Of a DNA stretch of 64,000 nt, positions 1,963-38,467 are shown piece by piece. The stretch spans positions 1,116,001 to 1,180,000 of the forward strand of contig CM030336.1 in assembly GCA_017654855.1 (NCBI GenBank). Direction: 5' to 3'. The notes below the pieces were generated by a model. The model was not told the DNA's origin. It saw nothing but the letters and a program-made list of their open reading frames with translations, and ran no database searches. The position numbers were made by a program, and so were the translations under genes. Source of the DNA: Podospora anserina. Its lineage: Eukaryota. How positions within the stretch are numbered: the stretch's first letter is position 1; each line of letters starts with the position of its first letter.

Positions 1963-4170
1963 ATGGCTACCCTACACAGACTCTCCACTGAAATCGTACT
2001 TCAAATTTGCGAGCTTTTACATGAGGATCACAGGCCCAGCTAAGTCTCGTTTGCACTGGCCAGCAAGCAATACCACGCCATCGCCACGGTGTTGCTATTT
2101 CAAAGGGTCACGTTCCACATCACAACACCAACACATCTCCAGAAGCACACAGCGAAATGCACCGCAGTTCTCGAACGGGACCACGCCTTCCGGCACGTCT
2201 GATACATTATTCTTGTGGGCTTCGACGATGAGGAGTTTGACATGCATGAGCGTTATCACCCACAATTCTTGAACGGAACCTATGAGGACGATATGATCGA
2301 TTTTCACCAGTGGAACGCCGGGCCAGCACCTTCCTTGCGGGGGGCTATCAACAACACAAGACTCCCACCGAATTCCCGATTACTCCGAGTTTCAGTGGCG
2401 TGTGAGAGCCGACAACACACCCACCACGGCAGCCTACGATACAGACAAGGCATGGGAGCCTTTGGCCAACTTGTTTCGGCGGCTTCCTGGATTACGAGAG
2501 GTCATTTATGAGTGCCCGGCTCAGTTCCCACCCTGCCTCCTTCAGGCTCTTCATGATAAGATGCCGCAGATCACACCGCGACTTCACCTCCGCACCTTCA
2601 AGCTGCGTATGATGGACGACATCATTACCGCCAACATTGTCTCCGACTCCCACGAGCTGGCCCTACTCACCTCCCCTTGCCTTTACAGTGTTTGGTTGGT
2701 GTTGGACGCTCCGGATCTGTCCGCCTACTGGTGGACAGAGTATCTTCGCAAAATTTTGGATGTTTTCTGTCAAATGATGGAAGGCCGGTTGCTTGCCTCC
2801 AACCTGGGCGAGATTGGCGGCACGCGGAACTACTCTCAGTTTCCGGGTACACGTACCGACGACATCCTTCTCGCAATTGTGAGAAATGCAGCCATGAAAA
2901 AGACCCTTCGTCCGGAAACGCTCAACATGGATTGCGCATATATCGACAACATTATGACGATAGATCCAGCTCTTGATCTTAGTATGCTCCGGACTCTTCA
3001 TCTCTTGCAAGTGCATTCTGTTTCATTCAAGGATGGGCTTTCAGCCGGAAGCTTTCCCCTACTGCGAGGCCTCTCATTGCAGTTCGTGTACCGAGATTCA
3101 TGGAGGGGGTATGACAAGTTCAAAAAGTTCATAAGGGGGTTCAGAAACCTTGAAAGTCTCCGGGAGCTGGGATGGGATTGGTCTGTGGCCTCCTTTTCAG
3201 ACTGGTCTGGAGAAATAGCCCCTTATCACAAAATTCGAAGCCTGTATTTTCAAGGCCCAGTGATGATGATGGCTAGATGGAAAGCTCGGTACAGTCCGAG
3301 TTGGAGATCAGATGTCTTGGGTATCTGTACCCTGGGGTGGAGACGTTGTCTCTGCCTATCCGCCGCTCAAACAAAGGGCGACAGACATGAGGCCCTTTTA
3401 TACCAGATAATAGGCAAGAGTTTTCCAAAGCTTAAGCATTTGGCGCTCACCCTCGAGGCACTTGCGGAAATTTTCATAGGCCGCCATCGCGGATCCTGAA
3501 TCCGCCCGCACTTGCTGCAACCTACCAGACGACGGTACAAGAGTTTTACTTGGGCCTGCTGCATAGTTCCGGCTTTATGGTAGCATCCTCCGAAAGTTAC
3601 AACAACCTCCCATTCGTCGATCAGCCCTTCCTTGCCTCTGGCTTGCCCCCCATTCTCAACAGGGAGATTCTGGGCCTGTTTGTCAACTCGGCCCTCGACG
3701 CCAAATTAGCCCGCCAGATCTTTGATTTGATCTCGTCCCCCTGCCACGCTTCCTCCGGACTGGATACTATGATGGTTCGAAGTAAGACCGTGTTGAGATT
3801 TCCAGACAGACATGAACCCTCACCGGAATAATCCTCTCACGGCCCCGTTGCCGGAACTAGGTCTAAGTACGGCCATCTCACAGCATATAATTCTTTAGGC
3901 CTGTGCTTGGCCGGATTGACGAAGGCGTGGCTGCTTGATACTCTTCACTGTGATGGTAGCGGGGAGAGAGTTAGGGTGAAGGAGATTGGGGCGCGGGCTG
4001 AGGGTTGGAGAAGGGAACGGATGGATTCGGTGAGGGTTCCTGAGGGGAGTCCATTGATGGATCATTTCCGGAAGCTGTGGCCTGGTACAAAGAAGGGTAC
4101 AAAAGGGCGGTGGGAGGACTGGGAGAGTGGGGATTTGGAGACGGAAACTCAGCAAGACTTATATGAACAT
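1963..4170 (+). pseudogene. F-box-like/LRR-like protein pseudogene
   Basis: ATG 1963 gives MATLHRLSTEIVLQICELL (F-box-like start). In-frame TAA at 2041, TGA near 2200, and several frameshifts (e.g. CAAA duplication near 3367-3374). ORF-track pieces 2402-3499, 3550-3831 and 3907 onward belong to it. End approximate. Confidence 0.7.
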
Positions 4171-19128: not shown

Positions 19129-21044
19129 CTAGAGCTTGGCGCCACCTTCATCATCATCATCCTCCTCCTCCTTACGAGCGCGAGTGACACTCAACTGACC
19201 CATCAATCTGCTGACCTCCTCCACAGACTCTCCCTCCATGCACTCCCCCTGGTCACCATCAGTCTCATCCTCCACCTCCTCCACCTCCTCCAACACCAAC
19301 CTCCCCCGCCTACCACGACCTTGAACACTCCCACTTCCACTACCCACACTCCCATGCAGGCCAGCCTGCGCTTGCATTAACCTCCCCTCCGTCAAACCAC
19401 CCCTCACGCTCCCCGCAGCTGTGACCGCAGACCCAAACGGATTCGAAGGCGTAGCCCGACTATCATGTCTACTCCCCCTCCAACCCCTCCTCTCCACCAA
19501 CACCCCCTTCACCTCCTTTTTCAGCGTCTTGATCATCTCCTCAATCACATTCTTCCTCTCCCTCACCAACATTTCCACTGCCCCATTCACCATCGACCCC
19601 TGGATGATATCCGCCACCCTCCACTTATGATACAAATTGCCGTGTCCCTTTCTCCTATCCACCTTGACGGGAGAAGCCTCAAAGTAAATGTCGCACAGCA
19701 TGCAAGTGGGCTTGGAACAGCCGATGTACCTCCCGAATTTATCCTCCATGAAGAAATCCCAATGTGCATCCTCCCTGCCAGGGGAAGGACAAAGGGTCTC
19801 CCTGCGGAGGTTGGACAAGAGTGTTACTTCTGCATGGACGGTGGTGATGCACTTGGGGTCTTTGATGGAATTTTTGAGGCCGGCGTCGAAATCCCTGGCT
19901 TGGAGCTGGGGGGAAAAGAAGTCGTAAGCGGCGTGAACTTCAACGTCGGGGGTGAGGCGGTTGAGGAGGTCTTTGCCTGTGCACATTCTTTCCTTGATCT
20001 GGAGGGGGCTGGGGAGCTTAGCTGGGGAGGGGTATGGGATGACTTCGGGGGACTCGAAGAGGTCGGGCCATTTTCCGCGGGCGACAATGAAGACGCGGAT
20101 GGCGAGGGTGTAAGAGTGGAGGCGGCCGATGGCGTGGCGCGTTTCGATCCAAGGGGAAGCGGGGCTGTCCTTCTCTGGGGACGAGTTCGAGACGTTCTCC
20201 GAGGAGGGGGCTTTGAGGCGGAGGAAGGAGGCAAAGGAGGAGGTGTAGGATTTTTTGAGGGCCATGAGGAGGCGGTAGGTTTCTTGGGTGACTGTTGAGG
20301 TGAGATGTTAGTTGCGGACAGACTTGGGACGAAGATAACATTGGGACTTGGCATGGCACATACAGGACAGGAGATCATGGGGCCAAGAGGCCACCGCTGC
20401 CTCGGCAATCGGAAGTAGCTCCCGCAGGCGTCCTGCCATTGTGGCTGGTTTGTGTCAGCTTTAACTCCCATCGATAGATTTCCAGGTGCCAGTAACTTAC
20501 CCTCAGCGCCAGAGTCCTTGGCGCAGCTCTCTAGGCAAAGTCCAATATTGTCAACCAATGTTCTGAGGTACTTGTACAGGCGCCACCGACAGTACACGAT
20601 GACCTTCTTCAACAGACTGTCCGAGACAGCCTTGACCTTGGCTTCGTCTTCAAGATCTTGCCCTTTCATGCTTCCAAGTACTTTCAAGATCTCGTCAGAC
20701 AAAAACTCCTTGACCCTGGCCATCTGTGTCTTGGTGCGACTATTAGAGGCAATCCAGTATTCCACCTGACCAGGTTGGACAATCATGGCGCTCGTGACGG
20801 TGTCTCCCCCATGCTTAGTATCGCAAATTTGCGCAATCTTGTTGACGAAGCACCTATACAGGGCGCGATCTTCGTCGGGGGTGGTAACAATAGAGTCATC
20901 GTCCGACGTATGGGGGTTCGACACATGGGGAAGTGCATCCTTCAGGGCACAGAAGAGGTGAATGGCTCCATAAAGCCGCTTTGCCTGGCTGGGAGCTAGC
21001 GGGACGGGTGTGGAGGTTTGAGCGGGGAGTGTTGCGCTGGGCAT
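19129..21044 (-). CDS. old: OTT_1508-like nucleic-acid deaminase (OLD-type), copy A, about 595 aa
   Basis: Exons 21044-20501, 20444-20364 and 20291-19129 (1788 nt, in frame; GT-AG introns with CTRAC branch sites). Motifs CFVNKIAQICDTKHGGDTVT, VHAEVTLL, YIGCSKPTCMLC, HGNLYHKW. Confidence 0.9.
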
Positions 21045-22130
21045 GTTGAGGGAATGTTTGGACGGAATGAAGGGGGCCAGAAGATAATTCAGTGAAGGAT
21101 TTGAGATGTTTCGATGGGAAACTAGATTAAGAACCGTGATCTGGTTAGTAGAGCACACGAAACGAGAATGACGGGAGAAGCAACTTGAAATTTATAATCA
21201 TCCCACCATCTCAGCTAGGGACCTGGTGATGTCGTCTGTCGTCTTCGCATTGTCCGTATGCCCCTCTCCCCTCTATGCCTCCTTGGCGGGAGGATACAGG
21301 AAATCTGCCTCGAACAGACTTGGGTCGCAACCTGGGCCAACTCACTGGTCAGTGATTGGAGGATTGGCTGGTTGGGTGACCACATCGCTCGACCCATCAC
21401 CAACCAAAGGTTTCAAGGCGTCCATCGGTAACAAACAGAACGAAGAGTCGAGAAATGACGGTCAGTTTTGTTCTTTGAGATTCTGGCAGGAAAGCAGAAG
21501 TTTGTGGGCGAGCTGTGGCAGAATGATTGACTTGTGGGGGGTCGGTCCAATGATAACAGTTCGACTGGGTCCAGTTGGCGTTCCGCCGTGTCACCGTGGC
21601 AGCGCTGTCTTGCATGCCGAGACTGTGGGCCTCGGCCTCGGTGCATATTCCGGCAGTGCGCTAACCATGCCGGCGCGCAGGTTGCCTTGGAGGCATAGGG
21701 ACCCCGTTGCGGGCCTCAAACCCGCTCCTCCCAGAACAGTGACGCCTCCGGATTGCGAACCACGGTGGGCCAGCACAGTGTCCCTCGGCCAGCTGATTTG
21801 GGCTTAGTATTTGAGTAACCGTATTTGCCCATGAAACAGAATGTCAGTTGTCTTGGAGGGTCCAGTGGAACACGCGCTGGGTTTGCATCTACCTTATGTA
21901 ATGCTCAAGTTGTCAGGGAGAAGTTCTACATTGCGAAGCTAGGGAGCATCGAGCGGTAAGGGAACGATGTCGAATGACCTTTGGTTACAACACTGTTACT
22001 GACCGGTGGTGTGGGAACGATAGTCGCCATCGCCTGCTACTGTCACCAACTCAACCAACACATTTGTCCTCATCCCCACATCACAACACTTTCAGTTGAC
22101 GCTAAACGTTCTGCAGGCTTGCAAATTGGC

Positions 22131-23530
22131 ATGCTTGAGTTTCTGTAAGTCCCACACCCATTGTTACCAGGGATAACGGCCTCAGATGGGACGGAAGCCA
22201 GGCGAGGTTGGGATTTCGGAACAACAGTGGTAACGGTCCAGGTCGAATAGTACCTTTTCACAGGTCCCTAAGCCTGTGTTTGGTGCCTTTTCCCGCGGCA
22301 ACATCGCAGACCAGGGTGCTGAAAGCGAATCGGACCAGGCCTGCCCTGACACTATTAGCGCTTTGCATCCAGATTGCCACTGGTTCCCCATGCCTTCTGG
22401 CAGGTTGTCCAAAGGAAAACAGCGAGCATCGGAATGGGCGCCTTACGACCACCCCTCTTCTCTAATGGGTCATGAAACGTACGAGGAGCTTGTTCCGGGG
22501 CAGGGGGGCATCGATCCCAGGCTCCTACAAAATGACTTCGCTCCGGCACCTCCTGAACCTTTGGACTATCCGGCTGGGCCGACTGAGTACATGGCTCCGG
22601 CTGAGGCCCAGCACGATACACCAGCTCTAGTTCCATCCACACATGTTATAAGAAGCGCTCAGATTGACTACACCAACGACTACCACGACGCTCAGAATCA
22701 GTTTCACACGTCCCAGGTCGACAGCTTTGTGCCATCTTATCCTTCGAGTTCCGGCCACGAGTCTTAGTACTCCACGGCCCAACAGAACTCGAGTGTGCCT
22801 GCAACTTTGGATCTTGCAGTACAACAAGAAGCACAAACTGACCAAGACTTTCGACTTTTCTTCTCCGACCTTTCAGTTTCGAATCCACCTTTCTCCGCTT
22901 CTGGGACAGCTTCAACGATTCCTTCCACCACTCCTTACACCTACCAAACGTTCGACACCAACAACAGCCAACTCCCCTGCACAATCATTCCTACAGCAAT
23001 GACGTCTCATGATATTGTACACACCAGTTACGAAGAACAGGGCTACTCAGTGGACCCCAGTCTTTACCAACTTGAAGACACCTCTTACTACACGGCTGGC
23101 GAAGCTTCTACTTCCTATGCACAGCCCTACTCACAAGAACCCGACACCACCGAAGCCTCGCCGACCAGCTCTGAGCCCAATAAATGTCCTGTTTGTGGAA
23201 AGTCCTACAGGCGGAAATGTGATCTTGAGTTCGTCCACCCTGCATCACGCATCCTCTGAGTCTTCTTTAGCTGACACCCCACCCACAAACAGCAAGCATA
23301 TGAACAATCACACCAAACGCCGCCAGTGCCCTTTCCGCGACTGTGAAGGTGGTGGAGCCGAGACTAAAGACCTCAATCGACACCTGTGGACTCACCATCC
23401 CGAATATGCCTCTGCAGAGAACATCCCCAAGGACGAGGAGTGGTGCGGCTTCCAAGGGTGCGGGTATCATGGACGTCGGGACAATGTGAAGAGACATAGG
23501 GACAACCATAACCACTGGCCTTCGGCGTAA
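22131..23530 (+). CDS. zao: C2H2 zinc-finger transcription factor (ZAO-type), copy A, with in-frame UAG at 22765-22767
   Basis: ORF-track pieces 22276-22767 and 22795-23259 are in the same frame, separated only by TAG. Intron 23229-23292 restores finger 1 (CPVCGKSYRRKCDLDKHMNNH); fingers 2 and 3 follow to stop 23530. Start is either ATG 22131 (with intron 22145-22250) or ATG 22390. Confidence 0.85.
22744..22792 (+). other. Predicted mRNA stem-loop presenting the premature UAG (candidate edited A at 22766)
   Basis: TCGAGTTC 22744-51 pairs with GAACTCGA 22785-92; GGCC 22753-56 with GGCC 22776-79; GAGT 22759-62 with ACTC 22769-72; loop is CTTAGT. Confidence 0.7.
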
Positions 23531-24423
23531 GAGAACACAGTTGTGGTTGGGGTCATTGGATACAATATTGGGTTCTCAATGGTTTTGCACCAAGTCATGA
23601 CTTTCTGGGCATCATTCTGCTTCTTTGAAGATTGTTATGTTGGTTTTCCTCTTGTTTCTTTTTGATGAAGGCTTGTTACGACTCATGAGGACACGATGAT
23701 ATCTCTACCCCTGTTTTAGCTTTGGCTTTTATGTCTCCACTCTTTCTTTGGGACCATTCTTGGAGTCCATTCTTGCCCACTTCTCATGTTTTTGAGCTAT
23801 TCTTGGTTGTTTTTTGAGCTTGGACGAAGACCAGGGCCTTTCTTTAGACAGATATTTCCTACAATGCAACAACCCCCTCTTTGCACTTTGGATTTGGCTT
23901 TTGCAAAGGAAGAGAAAACTCAGTATCCGCAAACACTGGCTGGGGTCTACATTCACCCAACTAGCGATATAGGGCTGACACCAAGCAAGAACTGTGCTGC
24001 CTTGTGGCCAAGAAACATCACCGCCAGTCGTTGAGGGCTAACGAACCCGCACACTGCAGTCGACTGCACCTTTTGCACAGGTGTACGATTGGGTGCTCTG
24101 GAATGGTCGCTGGGCAAGTCTTTCACGAGACGAAGTGGAATGTTATCATTAGGGGAAGGGGGGGTAACTGCTGAGTGGTGGAGTTGGAGGAAACATACAT
24201 CATCGTCAGGCTCTACAGTAAGAAGGTCTCCAGACGGCGCATGGAAATAACAAACACACTTTGAGTGTATCTCTAGACAAACTGACAAGACAACTTGAAG
24301 AATCCTTCCCTCTGACGTAAATCTGGGTCATAACATCATCACAAAATGCCAACTTAAACAAGAAACCAAAACAAGCAGCAACCCATGCTTGTATATTCCC
24401 AATCTTTGGAACAAAACACCCTA

Positions 24424-25449
24424 TCAACGACGGCCGTGAACAAGCATATGTCGCTTCATGTTGTCCGCCCTCTGAGTCCGTCCGCAGATCTCGCACCTCT
24501 TCTTGTGCCTTTGGACCCTCTTATCAGCACGAACATCAGCACGGTCACCATGGCTCTTAAGTTTGTGGCGATCCAGATCCTTCTGCTCTGCAAATCCTTT
24601 GCCACAGATGTTGCACTCTGTTGGCCTGCGGTGATTTTTTTGATGCTTTCTCAGCTCACCGGGCAGATTGAACACTTTTGATCCTTTGCACCCAAGATAG
24701 AGACAGTAGAACTTCCCGTCAATGATTGTGTACGGAACTTCAGATTTGGCCGGGTTGGTTTGGCTGGGTGGCTCGGTCATCGAGGCGGGGAGGGGATAGA
24801 TGATAAGATCACGTGCGTTTGCAGCAGGGAAAAGGTCGTTTAGGGTAGGCAGCACATTTATATGGTGTGTGAAATTTGCCGACAGGGTGTCGTTGACGGG
24901 GTCGTTGAAGGAAAACAGGAGGTCGTCGGGTAATGTTGAATCGGAACCATATTCTGACTCATCTGGTGTCAAGATGGTTGAATTGCTGGATATCTCGGAT
25001 GATTGAGACGAAGAGCAAGGAAATCCGAACTCATTGTCGGGTGGCGTATGAAATGAGACCACGGCGATTTCTGGAGTGGAAACGCTAGCTGAATATCCGT
25101 GTGGCGAGCTCTACGAGCTCAGTACTGGGACTTCAGTGCGCATCTCCGCTACAGAATGCGGAAAGTGGGCCAAGGGGTCAAAAGAGCCCCCATCGTAAGT
25201 GATTTGGTGGTTGGTAGTTGCAACTTGTAGGCCTCGTTGCATCATCAGAAGCGATGGGTTCACCGTTACACCTTCGTCAACGTTTTGGGAGAAGGTGTAT
25301 GGCTCCATCGCCATCGCCTGTGAGCCAAGTCCAACCCCTTGCCCTTGAAGGGGAAGGTCAACAATCCAAGGATGCTCCTCATTTTGTTCTGTGAAAGCAT
25401 CTGATTCGGAAACCCAGTTTGGGGACTGGTAACTGTATACGCGCAACCC
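24424..25449 (-). CDS. zao: C2H2 zinc-finger transcription factor (ZAO-type), copy B, with in-frame UAG at 25113-25111
   Basis: ORF-track pieces 25446-25111 and 25062-24424 are in the same frame, separated only by TAG. Three fingers: CLYLGC...HQKNH, CNIC...AEQKDLDRHKLKSH, CEIC...RADNMKRHMLVH. First in-frame ATG is 25314; an intron at 25498-25450 leaves the 5' structure unresolved. Confidence 0.85.
25089..25136 (-). other. Predicted mRNA stem-loop presenting the premature UAG (candidate edited A at 25112)
   Basis: Sense strand reads CTGAA-GTCC-cagtac-TGAGCTC-GTA-GAGCTCG-ccacac-GGAT-a-TTCAG: inner GAGCTC/GAGCTC stem with UAG at the apex, plus outer CTGAA/TTCAG and GTCC/GGAT stems. Confidence 0.7.
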
Positions 25450-26293
25450 CTGTGATTAGCAACTTGACGCTCCTTGGTGAGACAGAGGTGGTACTCACTG
25501 GTGGTTAGACATCACCGGCGATACAGGAAACGCCTGGAGAGGTACCAAAACAGCAGCCCGTGGTCGTATCAGACTCGGATGAATGTATAGGTACCCTGTC
25601 AATGAAGGTGGAACGAGCTATGTATGTGGTGTGCAGCTCGGGAGCTGCAAAGAGATGGTGGAGATGGAGGAGCACACGATCCCAGCAGCAGCGCAGAAGA
25701 ATGCCAGCTCAAATACCGACCAAGCTCTTTCCGTTTGCTAATCCTCCGCTTCACAGATTGGAAACGGCAGGAAACCTTCCCCGTCGTCTGCCGCCAGATT
25801 TGTTTGCAGTTTCAGTTGTGAGGTCCAAGGCACCCAATGGATCCAAACAACGTCACACAGATCCCACAAATGAGGATGTCGCACGCGGGCCGCGAGAGGG
25901 AGGGTTACATCGAGGTAGGCCTACTGCATTAGTGCCGCCTACCGCAGCTCTTTACGTTGCATTCAAACCAATCAATCATCTCTGCCATGCCGCGTCGGTC
26001 CATATTGGAACCCTCCGGGTTGTACGATGTCAGTGGGGCTTGAAAATACACAGCCTATCTTGTTTGCTACCTACGTGGTCGTCCTGGACCACTGAATAAA
26101 GCAGTGATCGAATGGCAAAGTGTGGATTTGTTCAGATGTTTGGCATGTCGGTCTTCAACTAAAATATACATCAAGTAAGTGCTAAATCTCTACCCTCGGC
26201 AATTTTCAGAGTTGAATCTCACCCGTCGACTTCACAGCTACGAACGTACTGAGTAGCTACTTGGCTGCTATTCTTTTAGTAGATTCAAACATC

Positions 26294-27935
26294 ATGAGTT
26301 CAGAGGAACAAACAGCCATCACATTGCCACCCAGCATGCGCAAACGATTTTACGAGGCCCTCATGATCATTTGCAGCATGACTCACATTTTTTCAAGAAC
26401 AGAAAACGGCACCAGGTCCCCGAGTCTTGAGCTCGAGGGGGTTGCTGACAAGAACTCACAAGGAACCTTTTTCTGTTTCGTGAACAAGCTTAGCCAGGTG
26501 TGCGACAGTGAGAGAGGGGGTGATACCGTCACCGCCTTTTCGGTCTTGCAACCAGACATCATCGAGTATCGCTTCACTTCAAACAGCAGAACGGAAATAA
26601 GTTTCCAGACAACAACCCGATTTGTGACAAAGCTTCTGAATACCCTTGGAGGAATTTCAGGCCCCGAGCTCCAGGAGGCGCGACGCAATGGAGAGGACTC
26701 CCTTCTGTTCTTGACTCTGATGCAACAAATACTCGAGTTCAACCGTCCCCGCATTACAAAGTTTCACATCGACTACCAAATGGCCAGACACCTCGAATTC
26801 TGCGCCAATGCCTGCACGGATGCAGAGGTAGCGACTCTTCTAAGAGCACTCAAGACTTTGGCTGATGCTTCTCTCGAGCCACTCTTATCTGATTGCGAAT
26901 GTGGGTATCATCAGGTCTTGGAGGAAGCTACACGCTTCATAACGTCACAAGACCCTAACTGACCCCGTTCCAGTTGCCATTAAATGCCAGCTTCTTCTCC
27001 GTACCATCAGCAGTATTTTCCGGAATCCCCACGTTAAGGAATACCTCCGGGAACGTACCCGCGAGGATCGAGAAAAGGCCAACAAGACACCCTGGACTGA
27101 AGTCTACCACTCTCTTGGCCGCTTGCAATCTTACACAATCGCCGTCGCAATTTTCATCACCGCACGCCAGCGCTGGCCCGAACTCTTCGACCCTGGATTT
27201 AAAGTGACCCACGTCCCCTCCAGCACACCCGCTCCTTCTCCCTCAATCAGAGGCTCTCCGGAACGTATCCTTTCACGGCTGACCACAAAGGAGGCCGTTC
27301 TCAAAGCTTTCAAAGAGGGCACCACCGACGCAGCCGGCCACCAGTCCCACCTCACTGATCTGACCAAAAAGCTCGAAAGCACCATCCGATCCAAGTGCAA
27401 GAAATTCCACCCCATCGTTCACGCCGAAGTTCACCTTGCCGATCATATCCTCCGCGAGTTACGCACAAACAACTCAGGACTTCGTTTCTACAACGAAGCC
27501 GCCTTCGGTCGGTACATTGGCACCTCTAAGCCAACTTGTCACCTCTGCCACTCGTACTTTGCCTGTCCATTTCTCTCTTCAACAGGTCGCATTCAAGTCC
27601 GTTCCAGTTCCCACAACTACTACCATAACTGGCGGGTTCCACACGTATATCCGGAGGACGGCGCCGAGGCAGAAAAGATGAGGAATAAGGTGATGGGGTG
27701 GATGATTGAGGATGTGAAGGCGGAGGCGGAAAGGACGGTGGTGGAGAGGTTTGCGGTGAGGAAGGGGCATGATAGTAACACGTACCCTTCCATGCCGGAT
27801 ACAGATTCGGTTGCTTCTATGCAGGTTGGTTATGGGGGGAGCCAGTCTGGTGCTGATGAATCTGTGAGAAGGCTGGGCGCGATGGATGATATAATTGCTA
27901 GTTTTGGGGGGATGAGGGTGAGTGTTGAGGAGTAG
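26294..27935 (+). CDS. old: OTT_1508-like nucleic-acid deaminase (OLD-type), copy B, about 522 aa
   Basis: Exons 26294-26900 and 26974-27935 (1569 nt, in frame). Motifs CFVNKLSQVCDSERGGDTVT, VHAEVHLA, YIGTSKPTCHLC, SHNYYHNW. Clear but divergent paralogue of 19129-21044. Confidence 0.9.
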
Positions 27936-29741: not shown

Positions 29742-30755
29742 ATGGATTCCCCAGAGGGCGAGTTTGACGGCAACGATTTTGCCAACAACCTCTTCAGCGA
29801 TCTCGCCCCCCTCCTGACGCTTTTCGGGGAGCAAGTCACAAAACAGTTCCTGTCCATGAGTGTGGGATGGGCCGACAACGTACTCTTGGCAATGGGCCCC
29901 CTGGGTATCTTGACCATTGTTGTGAGCGCCATTCGTGTAGCGGGTGAGACCGTACCAAACCTCAAGGCGCTCATTGGCAGAGCAAGGGAGGACAGGGCCA
30001 GCGTTGAAGTTGAGTTACTCTCTTCAACATCTAGGGAGGTTTGCGAACTGTGGACAGGAACCCAAATCGTTCGAGTACGCGGACAACCCCTCATATCTCA
30101 GCCGTTCATCATGACCGACACGGGTAACGTCTATCCCCTGTGGAATGATGTGGCGCAGGGGACTTTTGAGGTCAACTTCATGGCGCAAGACTGGGATCGC
30201 GAAACCAGCTTGTTGGCAAAAGTGCCGCCCAACCTTGGCTTGAATATTAGCGGTGCTATCCCTTCGAACCGTGAAATGTGGATGTGGGCTGCTCTGGGAA
30301 CTGTCCTGCAACTAGCCTCGCTGGTTGTGAGCGGGACTGTCACTTATCGTTGGAACTTGGCCCAGGTCGAAGTTCCCACCACCACATACGGATATCCCTG
30401 CTATCTTCTGGGCACTCTGCTTTTGACTCTCGGGGTTCTCCTGTGCGGACATATAGTTGAGACTGTCAGTAAAGAAAGGACTTTCAGATGTAAGGCAAAA
30501 ATGCGAAAGAGAGTGCGCATTTTTCGCATTCAACTGGCCGCCACCGTAAACGACCAGCACTTTGACAGTTATCTTATCTTCAACTCCCCCGAGAATCCTG
30601 ACGTCTATGCACCATTCTATCAGGGCATGAAGAAGAATACTCGGTATGTTCATTACCCTCCAGCCCGAATACCGCTGTTTTCTAACATCAATATTTGCGA
30701 GATATTATGCAATTGCAGGATCAGCGCTGTCATTCATGGGCTTTGTCACACAATA
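29742..30755 (+). pseudogene. Membrane protein of a fungal family usually bearing C-terminal ankyrin repeats; 3'-truncated by a Fot1 insertion
   Basis: Conserved N-terminus DFANNLFSDLAPLLTLFGEQVTKQFLS...LAMGPLGILTIVVSAIRV...ELLSSTSREVCELW and hydrophobic segments. Probable intron from 30644. Interrupted at TA 30754-55; no continuation seen beyond the transposon. Confidence 0.7.
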
Positions 30756-33067
30756 ACGTACTTTATAAGCGAGTCGGTCATATAAGTGGGCCGGTCACTT
30801 TTCGACCGCGACGCGTCCTCCTACACTCAATATCAACTTTCTCTACAACCCAACATGCCTCCTACCTTAAATGAAGCCAGGATAATCTTAGCTCTTAAAG
30901 CTATTTAAAAGACTCCGAAATTAAGCCTCCGGGCCGCAGTAAAGCTATATAATATACCATTCTCAACCCTCCGTAACCGACGCGCCGGCCGGCCTACACG
31001 ACGCGATACTACGCCCAAATCGAAGAATCTCACTTAATCCGAAGAGGATACTATTATTTAATGTATTATTAAGCTATATACGAGAGCTTTTCCACCAAGA
31101 TTACGTAGTATAGAAAATATAGTTAATTAATTATTACGTATATACGACGCGGCTTTTATTAGTAAGCTCTAGGTATATAACTTTATTAAACGTTAGCTAT
31201 AGTTCTATACGCGTTTTACGCGTAAATAAAATTATTAAAGGGCTAAGTACGAAGATTTAAAGGTTATAACCGAGTAGTTTACGTTAGTACGAAATATTAA
31301 AACTAAGTACGGTATTATAAATAATAATATTTATAATTTTAACGAAATTAGGTTTATAATAAATATTATTTTTATAAGTATAGTAATTACGATATCGGAC
31401 GGTTTTAATAAAGTAAAATTAATTTAATTTAATAACCGTAAATAAATAACGGTAATTTAAAGAATTAATACTTTTAATTAAACTATTTTTCTTTTTATTA
31501 TTTTAACCGTATAATACTATTTTATTAATTAATATACTAAATATAATTTATAATTTATTTAATATATTATAATTATTAATAATAATTAAATTATTAATTT
31601 AAAAAATAAAATTAAATTAAGTATTTCGATTATTATATAGCGTCCTATAAAAAGGATAAATATCGATTATTAATCTTAAACGGTTACGAAAGTTATTATT
31701 TAACCGAATTCGAATATTATTATTAATAAACTAACGTTATTACGCTTTATATACCTCTATACTCTTCCTACCTTCTCTAATTACTCGATATTAATTACTT
31801 TAGGCCGTTAAAATAAGTGTACGGTCGTTAAATTAAGGACTTAATATATATATAGATATTAATTATATAAGTAAGCTCGAGTTCCTTTATACCTTCCGCG
31901 AGGCTTTTTTTGCCTTTATAATAAAGAAAAATATATAGGGTAGCTTTGCGGGTGCTAGCCTTATACCGTATGATTTAAAGAAGGTAATTTCTAAATTAGA
32001 TATAAAGCTTCGTACGTTAATATCTTTAAATTTACGGCCCGGTACTATATAACTTTGGGTCTCTTAGATACTATATAACCCTCGAGAAACTAACTTATAA
32101 TTAACGTTTATTAAGACTCGCATTACTAACTATTAAAATAACTTCCCGACTTTAATAATAATTATAATAAACTAACTTACTAAAAGTATAACGGTTATAA
32201 TATATTAAGTGGCCCTCTTGCAGGTAGAGGTCTCTTCGCTCCGTAAGGCTAATAAGGCACTAAGCAAACGCCGGAGAGTTAAAAAAATACGCGTGAGACT
32301 TGGAGGGTTACTTACTGTACAAGAAGCACAAAATCTACTGGATTAGAAAGCCGTGGATGGGGAGATATGACGAACCCCTGTACAGAACCTCTGAAAGGGA
32401 TACGGGTTGAAGGTAACTTCTGACAATTGGTCCGGTGTAGCTAAACAGTGCACAACAAGATATCTCGATATAAACACAAAATGCCGTGAATACAAGCTTA
32501 AATTGCATACTGCGGAACTATCTATCTACACCAGCCAGTTCCTCCGTATATATAGACTTTAGGACCGTGAGGTGCTTACCCTGCTATGGCCCCGATCACT
32601 CCTAGCACATTGCATCCTGCATTGTGCTCGCCGTGCTATGCCTCTGATCATCCTTAGCATCTTGCATCCTGCAGACTGCTCGTGAGCCTTGGCGCTATAG
32701 CACCTTTGTCCAGGCCTGATTGGCTTGTTCCCTAACTTCCTTAATAATTGGCTAAGGACGTCCTGCGCCCCACATGTGGCGCGACCTGCCGTTGGGTTAA
32801 CTGTGACAGGAGAGAGTATAAGAAACGCAGCCGGATAGTAGTAGTACAGGGGGGGGCTCGTACGAAGGTTCGGTGCTGTGGTGTGTGCGGCAAGCCTGGC
32901 TATAATGCACGCACTTACCAGGAGGCTGCAGAATCATCTGATTCAGCTGTTTCTGATATAATTATAGTTAGTTCCTAATATTGGTGTATTACAATTGAGG
33001 GTAATTATAGTAGGGTAGTGAAAAGTGGCTCACTCGCTTATATGGCTCACTCGCTTATAATGTACGT
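30756..33067 (+). mobile_element. Fot1/pogo DNA transposon, copy 2, containing a solo LTR
   Basis: TA-flanked TIRs ACGTACTTTATAAGCGAG... / ...CTCGCTTATAATGTACGT. Length is 1864 bp after removing the LTR and one TSD. Collinear with copy 1. Confidence 0.95.
32366..32808 (-). mobile_element. Solo LTR family A (crapaud-like), lightly RIPed
   Basis: 443 bp with T(A/G)TGAC...TGTGACA ends and a perfect 5-bp TSD GGAGA (32361-65, 32809-13). Confidence 0.95.
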
Positions 33068-36139: not shown

Positions 36140-38467
36140 TTAAGTACGAATTCGGTGTTTCGAACGGTTTATTTCTAGGGGCCCAAAGAGTTGCGCGTCT
36201 GCCTCACTATCACCACGCTTCCTCTTCGGTTTTGAGAGCCTGGAAACCGCTCGAGGCTTGGGAGGTGGGGAGAGGTGGGCTCGGTCGAAGTCGATGATCA
36301 TTATGCGACCACGCTCGGCGTTCCAGAGATAATTGGCCCTATTTTCATCCCCATGAACAACACCCTCGTTCCAGATAGCCGTCAATGACTCCCTCTTCAG
36401 CGTCTCGGCGTCGTCCATGCTAGCGCTTGGCGTCTGGCCCGCCCACGACATAAGCATCATATGAACAACAAACTCAAGCCCCGGGAGAATGTAGCCACGA
36501 TCGAGGCGCACGAGGCCCAGATACACCGGTACCACGTCGCCCTGAAGATGATCAAGCTGTGCGTAGACCCGGCCTTCGTGCTCCAAACGACTGAGGCGGT
36601 CCTCCAGTGTTCCTTTACCAACAAATGTGTAGCCGTATGGAAGAAGCTCCAGCTTAAAAAGCCAGCCCATCGCTCCTCTCTTGCCCCAGAAGTCCACCAT
36701 CCGGCATCCCTTGTAGGGACTCAAGAGAAGCTGCTGCTCCACCATATCGGTAAAACGATGGGCATTGACGGGATGCCGAGAGGAGCCATCGAAGCGATGT
36801 AATGAGACATTGGGGCACTTCTCGTCCAGGTCTTTCCCTCTCTTGAGACCTAATAGGCACGCTTGTGTGCAATATTGCTTGGTGGGCCCCGAGTCAGCCA
36901 TGGCGATATCCCCGTCCTCGCCACCACTCGACGGACCGCGCTTCCGCTTGTTAGCCGCTAGCCTTAAGCGAGATGCGCCGGGTTCCGAATGGTCCTCTTC
37001 GTCGTCATGCTCGTTGCTTTGGGGGAGTACCGCTGCCGGTTTGCAAGACGACTGAGACCGTAAGGCTACATTCCGACCGGTCGGTTCCGCTTTGGACGTA
37101 TACTCTGAGATGTCCGTGTTCTGCGACGACGGCGCCGACGATAACTCGGCGGGCTCGAGCCCAAGATAGGCCACATCCGCGTACGACTCCGACCATGTTT
37201 TTAGTGTCGCCTTGGCTATAGACAGTGCTGTTTCGAGAGATTGTCCCTCGAGAGCTTCGGACTGAAAGCTGGACAGGCAGAAGCTGATTAGTTGAGCCAC
37301 TGCGGTGTGGGATAGCCGGTCGGTCCAGTCGTTGGTCGGCTCGCCCACATCGTCGGCCGGCAGGCACGGATGACAGTACAGCGTTTGCCAATCATCTCTG
37401 TCAACGTAGAGGAGTAGCAAGCACCGGCCCGCAGCAACATAACCATATGATACCCCGTAGGTGATCATGTAGTCGAAGACTTGCGTCAGTGCCATGGCGA
37501 TTAATGCCTCGGCCTGCTCCCGGCGCTGCACCTCCTCGTCGCGGCTGAGCTTGTCGTCGTTGATGCGTGCGACAACCTCGTGGAACAGGTGTTCCTTCGC
37601 TGTAGCCGACCGAATATACTCGATAGCGACTTTATGGGCTGCCTTGTAGTCGTATATAAAGGCGTGGGTCTGGCCTCCGCCGGGTTGCATCCGTATACCG
37701 ACTCCGTCAGGCTGTCTGTTCGAGCATATATATTTCCTCTTGGACGTAGGGCGCTTATTCGGCCCGGCTTGTTGGCGTCGCTCCAAACTCCCATCGCTGG
37801 TGTTGTCATCTGCACCGCTACTCCCGTCATCTTTTTGTGTGAGCTCGCGGAGGTTAGCGCTGAACCGAAACTCGGGGCATATCGATGCTTTGCCCGCCTC
37901 CTTATGCGTTGCAAGAACCTTGAGGATCCCCTGCACTGGGCGCTCGACTGCATCTACCTCAAAACGGTCGATCGCTTTCTCGTTACCCGCTAGATGATCC
38001 GAGATAATCGTCCCAAGGCTCTTAGTCGTGTTGGCTGGTTCGAAGAGCTGCCTTTGACCACAGATACTCTGCACAAGATCGAAATAATGTGGGTGGAGAA
38101 CGTTGGCAAAGTAGGTCCAAGGACGAAGTCGCTTGGGGTAGTACTTGCCCACGACTTTCGTATAGCCCGTAGAATACCTCGATGTGTTGGTAAGTCGTAG
38201 AGCGTTGTAGAGATGCCTGTGGCAGTTGTGCAGGTATTCGAGGAACGTGGTGTTTCGATGCTCCAGCTGAAGCCGCTCCCTCTCGCATCGCTCTTGCGCC
38301 TCTCGTGCCTTGGCTTCCTCCTCTCGTGCCTTGGCTTCCTCCGCTCGTGCCTTGGCTTCCTCCGCTCGTGCCTTGGCTTCCTCCGCTCGTGCCTTGGCTT
38401 CCTCCTCTCGTGCCTTGGCTTCCTCCAGCTCACGAAGGAGCTGTGCAATCCTGTCTTTGTCGGACAT
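36140..38467 (-). CDS. Spok: Spok-family spore-killer (meiotic drive toxin/antidote) protein, 775 aa; context suggests Spok2
   Basis: Intronless ORF beginning MSDKDRIAQLLRELEEAKAR. N-terminal heptad coiled coil; PD-(D/E)xK-like nuclease motif (PD253-254...YDYK275); Cys cluster C533/C537/C551; kinase-like domain (HGD707ENRAN, IID726FD). Which paralogue it is cannot be proven by eye. Confidence 0.95.
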   Translation of the reverse strand: MSDKDRIAQLLRELEEAKAREEEAKARAEEAKARAEEAKARAEEAKAREEEAKAREAQERCERERLQLEHRNTTFLEYLHNCHRHLYNALRLTNTSRYSTGYTKVVGKYYPKRLRPWTYFANVLHPHYFDLVQSICGQRQLFEPANTTKSLGTIISDHLAGNEKAIDRFEVDAVERPVQGILKVLATHKEAGKASICPEFRFSANLRELTQKDDGSSGADDNTSDGSLERRQQAGPNKRPTSKRKYICSNRQPDGVGIRMQPGGGQTHAFIYDYKAAHKVAIEYIRSATAKEHLFHEVVARINDDKLSRDEEVQRREQAEALIAMALTQVFDYMITYGVSYGYVAAGRCLLLLYVDRDDWQTLYCHPCLPADDVGEPTNDWTDRLSHTAVAQLISFCLSSFQSEALEGQSLETALSIAKATLKTWSESYADVAYLGLEPAELSSAPSSQNTDISEYTSKAEPTGRNVALRSQSSCKPAAVLPQSNEHDDEEDHSEPGASRLRLAANKRKRGPSSGGEDGDIAMADSGPTKQYCTQACLLGLKRGKDLDEKCPNVSLHRFDGSSRHPVNAHRFTDMVEQQLLLSPYKGCRMVDFWGKRGAMGWLFKLELLPYGYTFVGKGTLEDRLSRLEHEGRVYAQLDHLQGDVVPVYLGLVRLDRGYILPGLEFVVHMMLMSWAGQTPSASMDDAETLKRESLTAIWNEGVVHGDENRANYLWNAERGRIMIIDFDRAHLSPPPKPRAVSRLSKPKRKRGDSEADAQLFGPLEINRSKHRIRT
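38300..38425 (-). repeat. Six 21-bp tandem repeats encoding the Spok coiled-coil heptad EEAKAR(E/A)
   Basis: Unit C(T/G)CTCGTGCCTTGGCTTCCTC at 38300, 38321, 38342, 38363, 38384 and 38405. Confidence 0.97.

What the first reader, a model, noticed from the sequence alone, without database searches (positions are those of the whole stretch)
19129..27935. Deaminase + premature-stop zinc-finger gene pairs: an RNA-editing-gated transcription switch (old/zao type), present twice
Seen: two intact OTT_1508-like deaminases (HAE...CxxC), each divergently transcribed from a three-finger C2H2 gene. Each C2H2 gene has exactly one in-frame TAG upstream of the fingers (TCT TAG TAC at 22765; TCG TAG AGC at 25113), with open frame on both sides and no surrounding RIP damage. 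The two genes are too divergent to align there, so the same lesion arising twice by chance is unlikely. Established: A-to-I editing reads UAG as UGG (Trp), and in Neurospora crassa OLD deaminases have been reported to edit premature stops in adjacent zao mRNAs to control an antiviral transcriptional response. Inference: this locus is such a switch, making DNA-binding protein only when the neighbouring deaminase is active. Automated annotation would split or truncate these genes. The mechanism has precedent; I cannot tell whether this locus has been described.
Basis: partly seen in the sequence, partly recalled or inferred. Interest (0 to 1): 0.93.

Follow-up and report, generated by a model that had tools for sequence, protein, structure and literature searches.

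The report
Podospora twin deaminase/zinc-finger editing switch
This stretch of the fungus Podospora anserina holds two copies of a recently described fungal gene pair, in which an RNA-editing enzyme sits beside a regulator gene that carries a built-in stop signal; the pair is known from Neurospora, so this is a new example and not a new kind of system.

Summary
The window comes from the Podospora anserina complex, left end of chromosome 5, beside Spok2.

- **Genes.** Two OTT_1508-like deaminases, D1 of 595 aa and D2 of 522 aa, each keep HAE...CxxC. Each is transcribed divergently from a three-finger C2H2 gene (Z1, Z2).
- **RNA.** Contigs from 4 of 4 runs fix the introns. Both in-frame TAGs (22765-22767 +; 25113-25111 -) stay in the spliced mRNA, unedited in the dominant form.
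- **Conservation.** The stops are not strain-private. All 11 members of the Z1 cluster, including four sibling Podospora species, end at the same codon, as do 6 of 6 Z2 N-terminal forms.
- **Relatives.** Among metagenome loci with related deaminases, 10 distinct ones have a divergent zinc-finger neighbour. Nine of these carry an in-frame stop (7 TAG, 2 TGA) ahead of the fingers.
- **Structure.** The target A lies in a hairpin loop at 11 of 11 sites, against 48% of background A's.

This matches the OLD-ZAO module published for Neurospora crassa in 2025, so it is a new member of a known kind. Editing itself, and which enzyme does it, remain inferred.

The parts
19129..21044 (-). D1, OLD-like deaminase gene 1 (595 aa). 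CDS exons 21044-20501, 20444-20364 and 20291-19129. There is a 5' UTR intron at 21122-21184, and the transcript reaches at least 21500.
   Evidence: Splice joints appear in RNA contigs: the two CDS introns in 4 of 4 runs, the 5' UTR intron in 3 of 4. ORF assembled. D1 matches D2 at 29% identity over the full length, E 9e-60.
19612..19839 (-). OTT_1508-like deaminase domain of D1, with HAE...C-x2-C.
   Evidence: Pfam PF14441, E 1.4e-17, profile positions 1-63 of 64. Motif found.
21505..21670 (.). Short stretch between the divergent D1 and Z1 transcripts that no listed RNA contig covers; presumed shared promoter.
   Evidence: Ends of the listed RNA contigs. Contig ends do not map transcript starts, and 40 further pieces were not shown. 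No motif is shared with the second pair's promoter above shuffles.
22131..23530 (+). Z1, ZAO-like gene 1. CDS exons 22131-22144, 22251 (alternative acceptor 22242)-23228 and 23293-23530. The product is 176 aa if the TAG is read as a stop and 409 aa if read through. Leader exons run from about 21671, with introns 21955-22022 and 22145-22250.
   Evidence: Joints; ORFs. The 176-aa form exists as Logan protein P0180 at 100% identity.
22765..22767 (+). In-frame TAG of Z1 (codon 177). The candidate edited A is at 22766.
   Evidence: Kept in spliced RNA contigs of 4 of 4 runs. All 11 of 11 cluster members, including four sibling species, end here.
22743..22793 (+). Hairpin with the TAG in a 6-nt loop (CUUAGU).
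   Evidence: The 61-nt MFE is -20 kcal/mol, z -3.01, and 1 of 200 shuffles folds as well. This window ranks at 3.2% of 1170 windows in the CDS.
23185..23515 (+). Three C2H2 fingers of Z1. Finger 1 is split by intron 23229-23292.
   Evidence: Regex on the spliced product. The region matches the Z2 fingers at 33% identity, E 2e-9.
24424..25512 (-). Z2, ZAO-like gene 2. CDS exons 25512-25499 and 25432-24424. The product is 111 aa if the TAG is read as a stop and 340 aa if read through.
   Evidence: Joint 25433-25498 in 4 of 4 runs; ORFs. The 111-aa form is Logan protein P0175, 100% identical, seen on 20 contigs.
25111..25113 (-). In-frame TAG of Z2 (codon 112). The candidate edited A is at 25112.
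   Evidence: Kept in RNA contigs of 4 of 4 runs. Six of 6 N-terminal forms, at 92-100% identity, end here. Three annotated orthologues have a gap over this column.
25082..25141 (-). Hairpin with the A at the 3' end of a GUA triloop on a 7-bp stem.
   Evidence: The 61-nt MFE is -23.2 kcal/mol, z -3.00, and 1 of 200 shuffles folds as well. This window ranks at 1.0% of 963 windows.
24436..24705 (-). Three C2H2 fingers of Z2.
   Evidence: Pfam zf-C2H2, E 2.7e-8; regex.
25822..26082 (.). Stretch between the divergent Z2 and D2 transcripts that the listed RNA contigs leave open; presumed shared promoter.
   Evidence: Contig ends worked out from record lengths and joint sides; mean depth is lowest in bin 25923-26223 in 3 of 4 runs. 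Contig ends do not map transcript starts.
26294..27935 (+). D2, OLD-like deaminase gene 2 (522 aa). CDS exons 26294-26900 and 26974-27935. There is a 5' UTR intron at 26175-26237.
   Evidence: Joints in 4 of 4 runs; ORF.
27417..27644 (+). OTT_1508-like deaminase domain of D2, with HAE...C-x2-C.
   Evidence: Pfam PF14441, E 5.8e-17, profile positions 1-64 of 64. Motif found.

Best explanation
The locus holds two old paralogous OLD-ZAO modules in mirror image (D1<- ->Z1 Z2<- ->D2). Each module is an OTT_1508-like adenosine deaminase gene transcribed divergently from a three-finger C2H2 transcription-factor gene. The factor's mRNA carries one conserved in-frame UAG, in a hairpin loop, about 136-140 codons before the first finger.

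**Shown here:**
- the gene models, and that all four genes are transcribed and spliced;
- that the UAG stays in the mature mRNA;
- that the stop and the hairpin are conserved in sibling species and in distant relatives.

**Inferred from the Neurospora crassa system:**
- Unedited mRNA gives only a finger-less N-terminal peptide (176 or 111 aa).
- When the deaminases are induced, for example by virus or stress, the A of UAG is deaminated to inosine.
- The codon then reads as Trp, and the full-length factor (409 or 340 aa) is made and switches on a costly response programme.
For: **Domains and motifs.** Pfam and motif results are.

**RNA.** Spliced RNA contigs of 4 runs from 4 studies cover all four genes and keep both TAGs.

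**Coding on both sides.** The frames are coding on both sides of each TAG.

**Conservation of the stop, Z1.** All 11 of 11 cluster members end at the same codon. They include annotated proteins of P. pseudocomata, P. bellae-mahoneyi, P. pseudopauciseta and P. pseudoanserina. The downstream frame stays open in two diverged relatives, P0181 and P0192.

**Conservation of the stop, Z2.**
- Six of 6 N-terminal forms end at ...VPVLSS.
- None of 5 homologues has a residue at the TAG column. The Cercophora samala, Triangularia setosa and Apiosordaria backusii models have a gap there, one ends there, and the T. verruculosa model starts after it.
- These are the same three annotation artefacts that Zou 2024 (PMC11169179, abstract and section 7 read) describe for the zao homologue CHE1.

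**Independent DNA.**
- 54 metagenome loci encode related deaminases.
- 13 of the 19 loci with at least 3.4 kb upstream, plus L011 and L023, have a zinc-finger hit upstream on the opposite strand. That makes 10 distinct loci.
- 9 of those 10 have an in-frame stop between a long N-terminal ORF and the finger ORF: TAG in 7 and TGA in 2.

**Hairpins.**
- Both window sites fold at z about -3.0.
- The A lies in a hairpin loop at 11 of 11 sites, against 1028 of 2139 background A's, P about 3e-4.
- The base before the A is U at both window sites.
- Preference for a hairpin loop and for U at -1 is what the commentary reports for OLD enzymes.
Against: **No editing was seen.**
- The RNA contigs of 4 of 4 runs carry A at both sites.
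- No read-through protein with Trp turned up among database proteins of fitting length.
- Both results are weak, because contigs drop minor variants and the conditions of the runs are unknown.

**Other gaps.**
- Direct homology to N. crassa OLD-1/2 and ZAO-1/2 was not tested. No N. crassa protein appeared in my three name-bearing searches, whose length limits may exclude the truncated annotations. The primary paper is not held.
- 4 of 14 distinct metagenome loci with enough flank lack the zinc-finger neighbour.
- One neighbour, in L035, has no clear in-frame stop.
- The two promoters share no motif above shuffles, so there is no sign of a common ZAO binding site.
Confidence: 0.8

Rival explanations
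1. The stops are corrected by A-to-I editing, but by the sexual-stage Tad2/Tad3-Ame1 machinery of Sordariomycetes and not (or not only) by the neighbouring OTT_1508 deaminases. On this reading the neighbourhood reflects co-regulation only.
For: That machinery also prefers U at -1 and hairpin loops, and is known to correct premature UAG codons (commentary PMC12754623; abstract of Zou 2024). Nothing in my data assigns the editing to a particular enzyme.
Against: The deaminase/zinc-finger neighbourhood recurs twice in the window and in 10 of 14 distinct metagenome loci with enough flank. In L023 the deaminase type and the finger type go together: the deaminase scores 161 bits to D1 against 144 to D2, and the fingers score 91 bits to Z1 against 34 to Z2. 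Two relatives carry TGA, where the A follows a G, which does not fit the preference for U at -1. In N. crassa the OLD enzymes are reported to do this editing.
Confidence: 0.1
2. There is no recoding. The UAG is a true stop. The functional products are the short N-terminal peptides and/or finger-only proteins made from internal starts (Z1 ATG 22999, 155 aa; Z2 ATG 24780, 118 aa) on shorter transcripts, like zao-1C of N. crassa.
For: In-frame ATGs that would give all three fingers exist in both genes. The commentary describes such a short zao-1C isoform. Only unedited RNA was seen.
Against: The 77 and 109 codons between each TAG and the next ATG are stop-free in the same frame as the upstream ORF. 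The same one-stop, same-frame layout recurs in 9 of 10 distinct relatives. The hairpin around the stop is conserved. None of these is needed for two separate products.
Confidence: 0.06
3. Programmed translational read-through of UAG, or decaying pseudogenes.
For: A single in-frame stop is compatible with either at first sight.
Against: The contexts UAG-U and UAG-A are not the read-through contexts I recall; I did not test this. Against pseudogenes: there are no further lesions and no RIP. The genes are expressed and correctly spliced. The stop and both flanking frames are conserved over sibling species and distant relatives. All 4 of 4 coding differences between the window and the RNA runs, which lie in the deaminases, are synonymous.
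Confidence: 0.04

Closest known systems
OLD-ZAO modules of Neurospora crassa (old-1_zao-1, old-2_zao-2). Primary paper: Honda, Yokoyama and Suzuki, Cell Host Microbe 2025, not held. Known to me through the commentary PMC12754623 (read whole) and passages of PMC13327615.
   Same: - An OTT_1508-like deaminase with HxE...CxxC lies next to a C2H2 zinc-finger gene.
- There are two paralogous pairs.
- One premature UAG lies ahead of the fingers.
- The target site has a hairpin loop and U at -1.
- One pair (D1/Z1 here) looks faster-evolving: the Z1 N-terminus found no homologue outside the Podospora complex, whereas Z2 has orthologues at 39-57% identity.
   Different: - The organism is Podospora anserina.
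- The two pairs lie mirror-wise within 9 kb, with the two zinc-finger genes tail to tail. I could not learn whether N. crassa has the same layout.
- Editing, virus induction, QDE-2 control and feedback are all untested here.
- Sequence-level orthology to the N. crassa genes was not tested.
CHE1 of Fusarium graminearum (Zou et al. 2024, PMC11169179; abstract and section 7 read). The commentary calls it a zao homologue.
   Same: - It is a three-finger C2H2 factor with a conserved premature TAG in a hairpin loop.
- The unedited product is a short finger-less protein.
- Orthologues show the same three annotation artefacts: truncated at the stop, started after it, or given a false intron over it. 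I see all three among the Z2 orthologues.
   Different: The parts of that paper I read do not tie CHE1 editing to a neighbouring deaminase; the abstract frames it beside ADAT-type editing and reports stimulation by oxidative stress. Sequence similarity between CHE1 and Z1 or Z2 was not tested.
Sexual-stage Tad2/Tad3-Ame1 A-to-I editing of premature stop codons in Sordariomycetes (as summarised in PMC12754623).
   Same: It is also UAG-to-UGG correction, with U at -1, in hairpin loops.
   Different: That system works genome-wide, is specific to the sexual stage, uses an enzyme derived from a tRNA deaminase, and has no fixed gene neighbourhood.

Membership tests
OLD-ZAO module | A deaminase of the OTT_1508-like family with an intact HxE...CxxC centre | tested here: met
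   PF14441 matches at E 1.4e-17 (D1) and 5.8e-17 (D2), covering the full profile. HAE...C-x2-C is present in both.
OLD-ZAO module | A C2H2 zinc-finger gene directly adjacent to the deaminase gene | tested here: met
   Both pairs are head to head. The same neighbourhood is seen in 10 of 14 distinct metagenome loci with enough flank.
OLD-ZAO module | One premature in-frame UAG ahead of the fingers that is retained in mature mRNA | tested here: met
   Spliced RNA contigs in 4 of 4 runs keep both TAGs. The stop is conserved in sibling species and in 9 of 10 distinct relatives.
OLD-ZAO module | Target A in a hairpin loop with U at -1 | tested here: met
   z -3.01 and -3.00. The A is in a hairpin loop at 11 of 11 sites, against a 48% background. 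U at -1 holds for the 9 UAG sites but not for the 2 UGA sites.
OLD-ZAO module | A-to-I editing of the UAG to UIG in the RNA | tested here: inconclusive
   Contigs of 4 RNA runs carry A at both sites. Contigs hide minor variants, no raw reads were available, and the conditions of the runs are unknown.
OLD-ZAO module | Editing depends on the neighbouring OLD deaminase | not testable with these tools
   This needs deletion or catalytic mutants.
OLD-ZAO module | Induction by virus infection, repression by Argonaute QDE-2, and a growth cost of the edited form | not testable with these tools
   This needs infection experiments, RNAi mutants and TGG knock-ins in P. anserina.
OLD-ZAO module | Sequence orthology to N. 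crassa OLD-1/2 and ZAO-1/2 | not tested
   No N. crassa protein appeared or 48 (length-limited searches), and the representative library carries no names. The primary paper and its supplements were not available.

The most novel reading that the evidence does not exclude
The stop-in-a-hairpin may be the ancestral recognition element of the whole deaminase/zinc-finger family. OLD enzymes would then read the structure and not the UAG triplet. Two relatives carry UGA, where the editable A follows a G, and this would extend the target rule.

In Podospora, the two old module lineages would form one mirror-image cassette with convergent, possibly overlapping, zinc-finger 3' ends. That cassette could be cross-edited, and it could serve a general non-self or stress alarm (for example heterokaryon incompatibility) and not only virus defence.
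Probability: 0.2. Interest if true: 0.6.

Novelty: new member of a known kind. Interest (0 to 1): 0.42.

Why it matters
A 2026 commentary (PMC13327615, passages read) states that the generality of the OLD-ZAO mechanism across fungi is unknown.

**What this locus offers:**
- It places both module types in Podospora anserina, a second genetic model fungus.
- RNA-supported gene models and exact candidate sites (22766 +, 25112 -) make the mechanism directly testable there.

**What the metagenome survey adds:**
- DNA-level evidence, independent of this genome, that the premature stop and its hairpin travel with the deaminase neighbourhood in 9 of 10 distinct relatives.
- A hint of UGA-type targets.

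**Practical point.** Z1 and Z2 and their orthologues are mis-annotated in public records: truncated at the stop, started after it, or given a false intron over it. Genome annotators should treat this family specially.

Tried and rejected
- **Whole genome of the window.** None is held.
- **Primary paper (Honda 2025).** Not held. Supplements of all papers are closed, so I cannot say whether P. anserina is already listed in its survey.
- **Literature searches.**
  - Podospora + OTT_1508 gave 0 papers.
  - Podospora anserina + RNA editing + premature stop codon gave 9 papers, 8 of them listed; none of the listed titles or abstract starts concerns this locus.
  - Podospora anserina + A-to-I gave 21 papers, of which 15 were listed. 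I read passages of one preprint, which mentions only ADAT genes.
  - A search on Pa_5_10 to Pa_5_60 gave only Spok2 and unrelated hits.
- **RNA holders.** No holder is on record as RNA. The four runs I laid proved to be RNA by their splice joints. They are contigs, so they give no editing level, no transcript ends and no strand.
- **Read-through (Trp) forms among database proteins.** None found for Z2 or Z1.
- **Shared promoter motifs between the two pairs.** None above shuffles.
- **First metagenome scan, with the Z2 alignment.** 120 pattern matches, none confirmed.
- **Earlier findings of this scan.** Nothing.
- **Protein atlas for D2.** It only restated the OTT_1508 family.
- **Second deaminase in mirror position in the 54 metagenome loci.** None.
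- **Bidard 2013 (PMC3689799, passages read).** It reports 'adenosine deaminases' up-regulated in incompatibility in P. anserina and N. crassa. Which genes these are is given only in a closed supplement, so this remains a lead.
- **Five fixed differences between the window and the RNA contigs.** Considered as possible editing and rejected. They are at full depth in every run that covers them, only one is A>G in the mRNA sense, and the four in coding sequence are synonymous. They are strain differences or assembly errors.

Full report
**What is there.**

[quoted passage not shown] It finds a C2H2 finger in 24424-25110(-). Both deaminases keep HAE...C-x2-C, and each zinc-finger protein has three fingers.

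**Organism.**

No genome is held for the window. Three intact window ORFs are in the protein collection by exact sequence. Their 90% clusters contain PODANS_5_10 of Podospora anserina S mat+ and QC762_500020-type proteins of sibling Podospora species. Grognet et al. 2014 (PMC4022471, passages read) state that Pa_5_10 is the spore killer Spok2 and that it is bordered by RIP-inactivated transposons. This fits the AT-rich blocks around 36140-38467. The window is therefore the left end of chromosome 5 of P. anserina or a very close relative. It is not Neurospora crassa.

**Gene models from RNA.**

Twenty sequencing runs hold at least half of the sampled words of the stretch. I laid four of them, from four studies. 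All are contigs, and they proved to be RNA because they carry GT..AG joints.

- D1 (-) has introns 20292-20363, 20445-20500 and 21122-21184.
- Z1 (+) has introns 21955-22022, 22145-22241 or 22145-22250 (alternative acceptors, 9 nt apart, in frame) and 23229-23292.
- Z2 (-) has intron 25433-25498.
- D2 (+) has introns 26175-26237 and 26901-26973.

These joints give the following products:

| Gene | Start | Product |
|---|---|---|
| D1 | ATG 21044 | 595 aa |
| D2 | ATG 26294 | 522 aa |
| Z1 | ATG 22131, TAG at codon 177 | 409 aa if read through |
| Z2 | ATG 25512, TAG at codon 112 | 340 aa if read through |

D1 and D2 are full-length paralogues (29% identity, E 9e-60). Z1 and Z2 align only over the fingers (33% identity, E 2e-9).

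In 4 of 4 runs, spliced contigs cover both TAGs with no differing letter. The stops are therefore not spliced out, and the dominant assembled RNA is unedited. Contigs drop minor variants, so this says nothing about low-level or conditional editing.

**Not damage, not chance.**

- The four genes show no RIP signature, whereas the flanks do.
- The 77 (Z1) and 109 (Z2) codons between each TAG and the next in-frame ATG are stop-free. Only 299 of 5000 and 97 of 5000 shuffles do as well.
- Five fixed differences separate the window from the RNA runs. Four lie in the deaminase coding sequences, and all four are synonymous.

**Conservation in relatives: proteins.**

For Z1, the 176-aa pre-stop product exists as a database protein at 100% identity. 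All 11 of 11 members of its 90% cluster end at the same codon. They include annotated proteins of P. pseudocomata, P. bellae-mahoneyi, P. pseudopauciseta and P. pseudoanserina, and they differ by many substitutions elsewhere. The frame after the stop stays open in two diverged relatives.

For Z2, six of 6 N-terminal forms (92-100% identity) end at ...VPVLSS. Among five more distant homologues, none has a residue at the TAG column. The Cercophora samala, Triangularia setosa and Apiosordaria backusii models have a gap there, one protein ends there, and the Triangularia verruculosa model starts after it. Zou et al. 2024 (PMC11169179, abstract and section 7 read) describe the same three annotation artefacts for the conserved premature stop of CHE1.

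**Conservation in relatives: DNA.**

A scan of metagenome contigs with a deaminase alignment gave 54 loci.

- Of the 19 loci with at least 3.4 kb upstream of the match, 13 have a zinc-finger hit upstream on the opposite strand. L011 and L023 have one too. After merging duplicates, 10 distinct loci have the neighbour and 4 lack it.
- In 9 of the 10, a single in-frame stop separates a long N-terminal ORF (89-230 codons) from the ORF that runs into finger 1.
- The stop is TAG in L002, L007, L011, L023, L025, L029 and L038. It is TGA in L003 and L016. L035 is unclear. Without RNA I cannot exclude that some of these stops lie in introns.
- None of the 54 loci shows a second deaminase in mirror position.

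D1 and D2 are each closer to metagenomic deaminases (161 and 180 bits) than to one another (108 bits). L023 is D1-like in its deaminase and Z1-like in its fingers (91 against 34 bits). The two modules are therefore old lineages, each inherited as a pair, and not a recent inverted duplication.

**RNA structure.**

Both window TAGs sit in hairpin loops.

- The 61-nt contexts fold at z -3.01 and -3.00, with 1 of 200 shuffles each doing as well.
- They rank at 3.2% and 1.0% of all windows in their own coding sequences.
- Over the 11 sites (2 in the window, 9 metagenomic), the target A is in a hairpin loop in 11 of 11. The figure for background A's nearby is 1028 of 2139, giving P about 3e-4. Mean MFE is -6.1 against -2.5 kcal/mol.

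**Comparison with what is known.**

The commentary PMC12754623 (read whole) describes the N. crassa OLD-ZAO system of Honda, Yokoyama and Suzuki 2025. Its features are:

- two pairs of an OTT_1508-like deaminase and an adjacent zinc-finger gene;
- UAG-to-UIG correction of a premature stop;
- preference for hairpin loops and for U at -1;
- induction by viruses and repression by QDE-2;
- a growth cost of the edited form;
- presence in Sordariomycetes, Eurotiomycetes and one basidiomycete.

Every architectural feature is met here. The catalytic event, its dependence on the neighbouring enzyme and the biology are not tested. The primary paper is not held and supplements are closed, so P. anserina may already be in its survey. 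My searches found no paper describing this locus.

**Verdict.**

It is a new member, in a second model fungus, of a kind published in 2025. It is not a new mechanism.

The most likely mechanism is stop-codon correction by A-to-I editing that gates production of two DNA-binding factors (confidence 0.8). The rivals are editing by the sexual-stage Tad2/3-Ame1 enzyme (0.1), separate short products without recoding (0.06), and read-through or pseudogenes (0.04).

Noticed in passing
window 36140-38467 (-): A 775-aa ORF with an N-terminal AKARAEE repeat and a weak kinase-like match (APH, E 2.9e-4, below the Pfam cut-off). It clusters at 90% identity or more with PODANS_5_10, which Grognet 2014 names the spore killer Spok2. 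It is flanked by strongly RIP-mutated AT-rich blocks at about 31-36 kb and 39-64 kb.
   Followed up: partly
window 23531-24423: The two zinc-finger genes are tail to tail. Z1 contigs reach 24009 (run X3), Z2 contigs reach down to 23904 (run X2), and one contig in X1 spans both genes. The convergent 3' UTRs may therefore overlap and could form double-stranded RNA. Contigs cannot prove this.
   Followed up: no
window 19129-19143 (-), C-terminus of D1: D1 ends in ...DDDDEGGAKL. The homologues P0001-P0003 share an acidic run followed by GGAxL or GGxxL at the very C-terminus. By my recollection, -AKL resembles a peroxisomal PTS1 signal. D2 lacks it.
   Followed up: no
window 21671-22250, Z1 leader: The leader is long and multi-intron. 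It contains a 66-codon upstream ORF (ATG 21831), an optional intron 21843-21923 (seen in one run), and two in-frame alternative acceptors (22242 and 22251). These may add a further layer of control.
   Followed up: no
L003 (=L004, L005) near 2860; L016 (=L019, L036) near 3338: In two distinct metagenomic relatives the in-frame stop is TGA, not TAG, and its A also lies in a hairpin loop. If this stop is exonic and edited (UGA to UGG), the target A follows a G and not a U.
   Followed up: partly
window 19378, 22095, 26341, 26368, 27272: Five letters differ between the window and the RNA contigs in every run that covers the place (one run lacks cover at 19378). The four in coding sequence are synonymous. 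They are probably strain differences or errors in the assembly.
   Followed up: yes
window 29742-30785 (+): A 347-aa ORF that clusters with 847-aa proteins (locus tags of the QC762_500020 type) of sibling Podospora species. It has no Pfam match. The window copy may have further exons or may be truncated.
   Followed up: no
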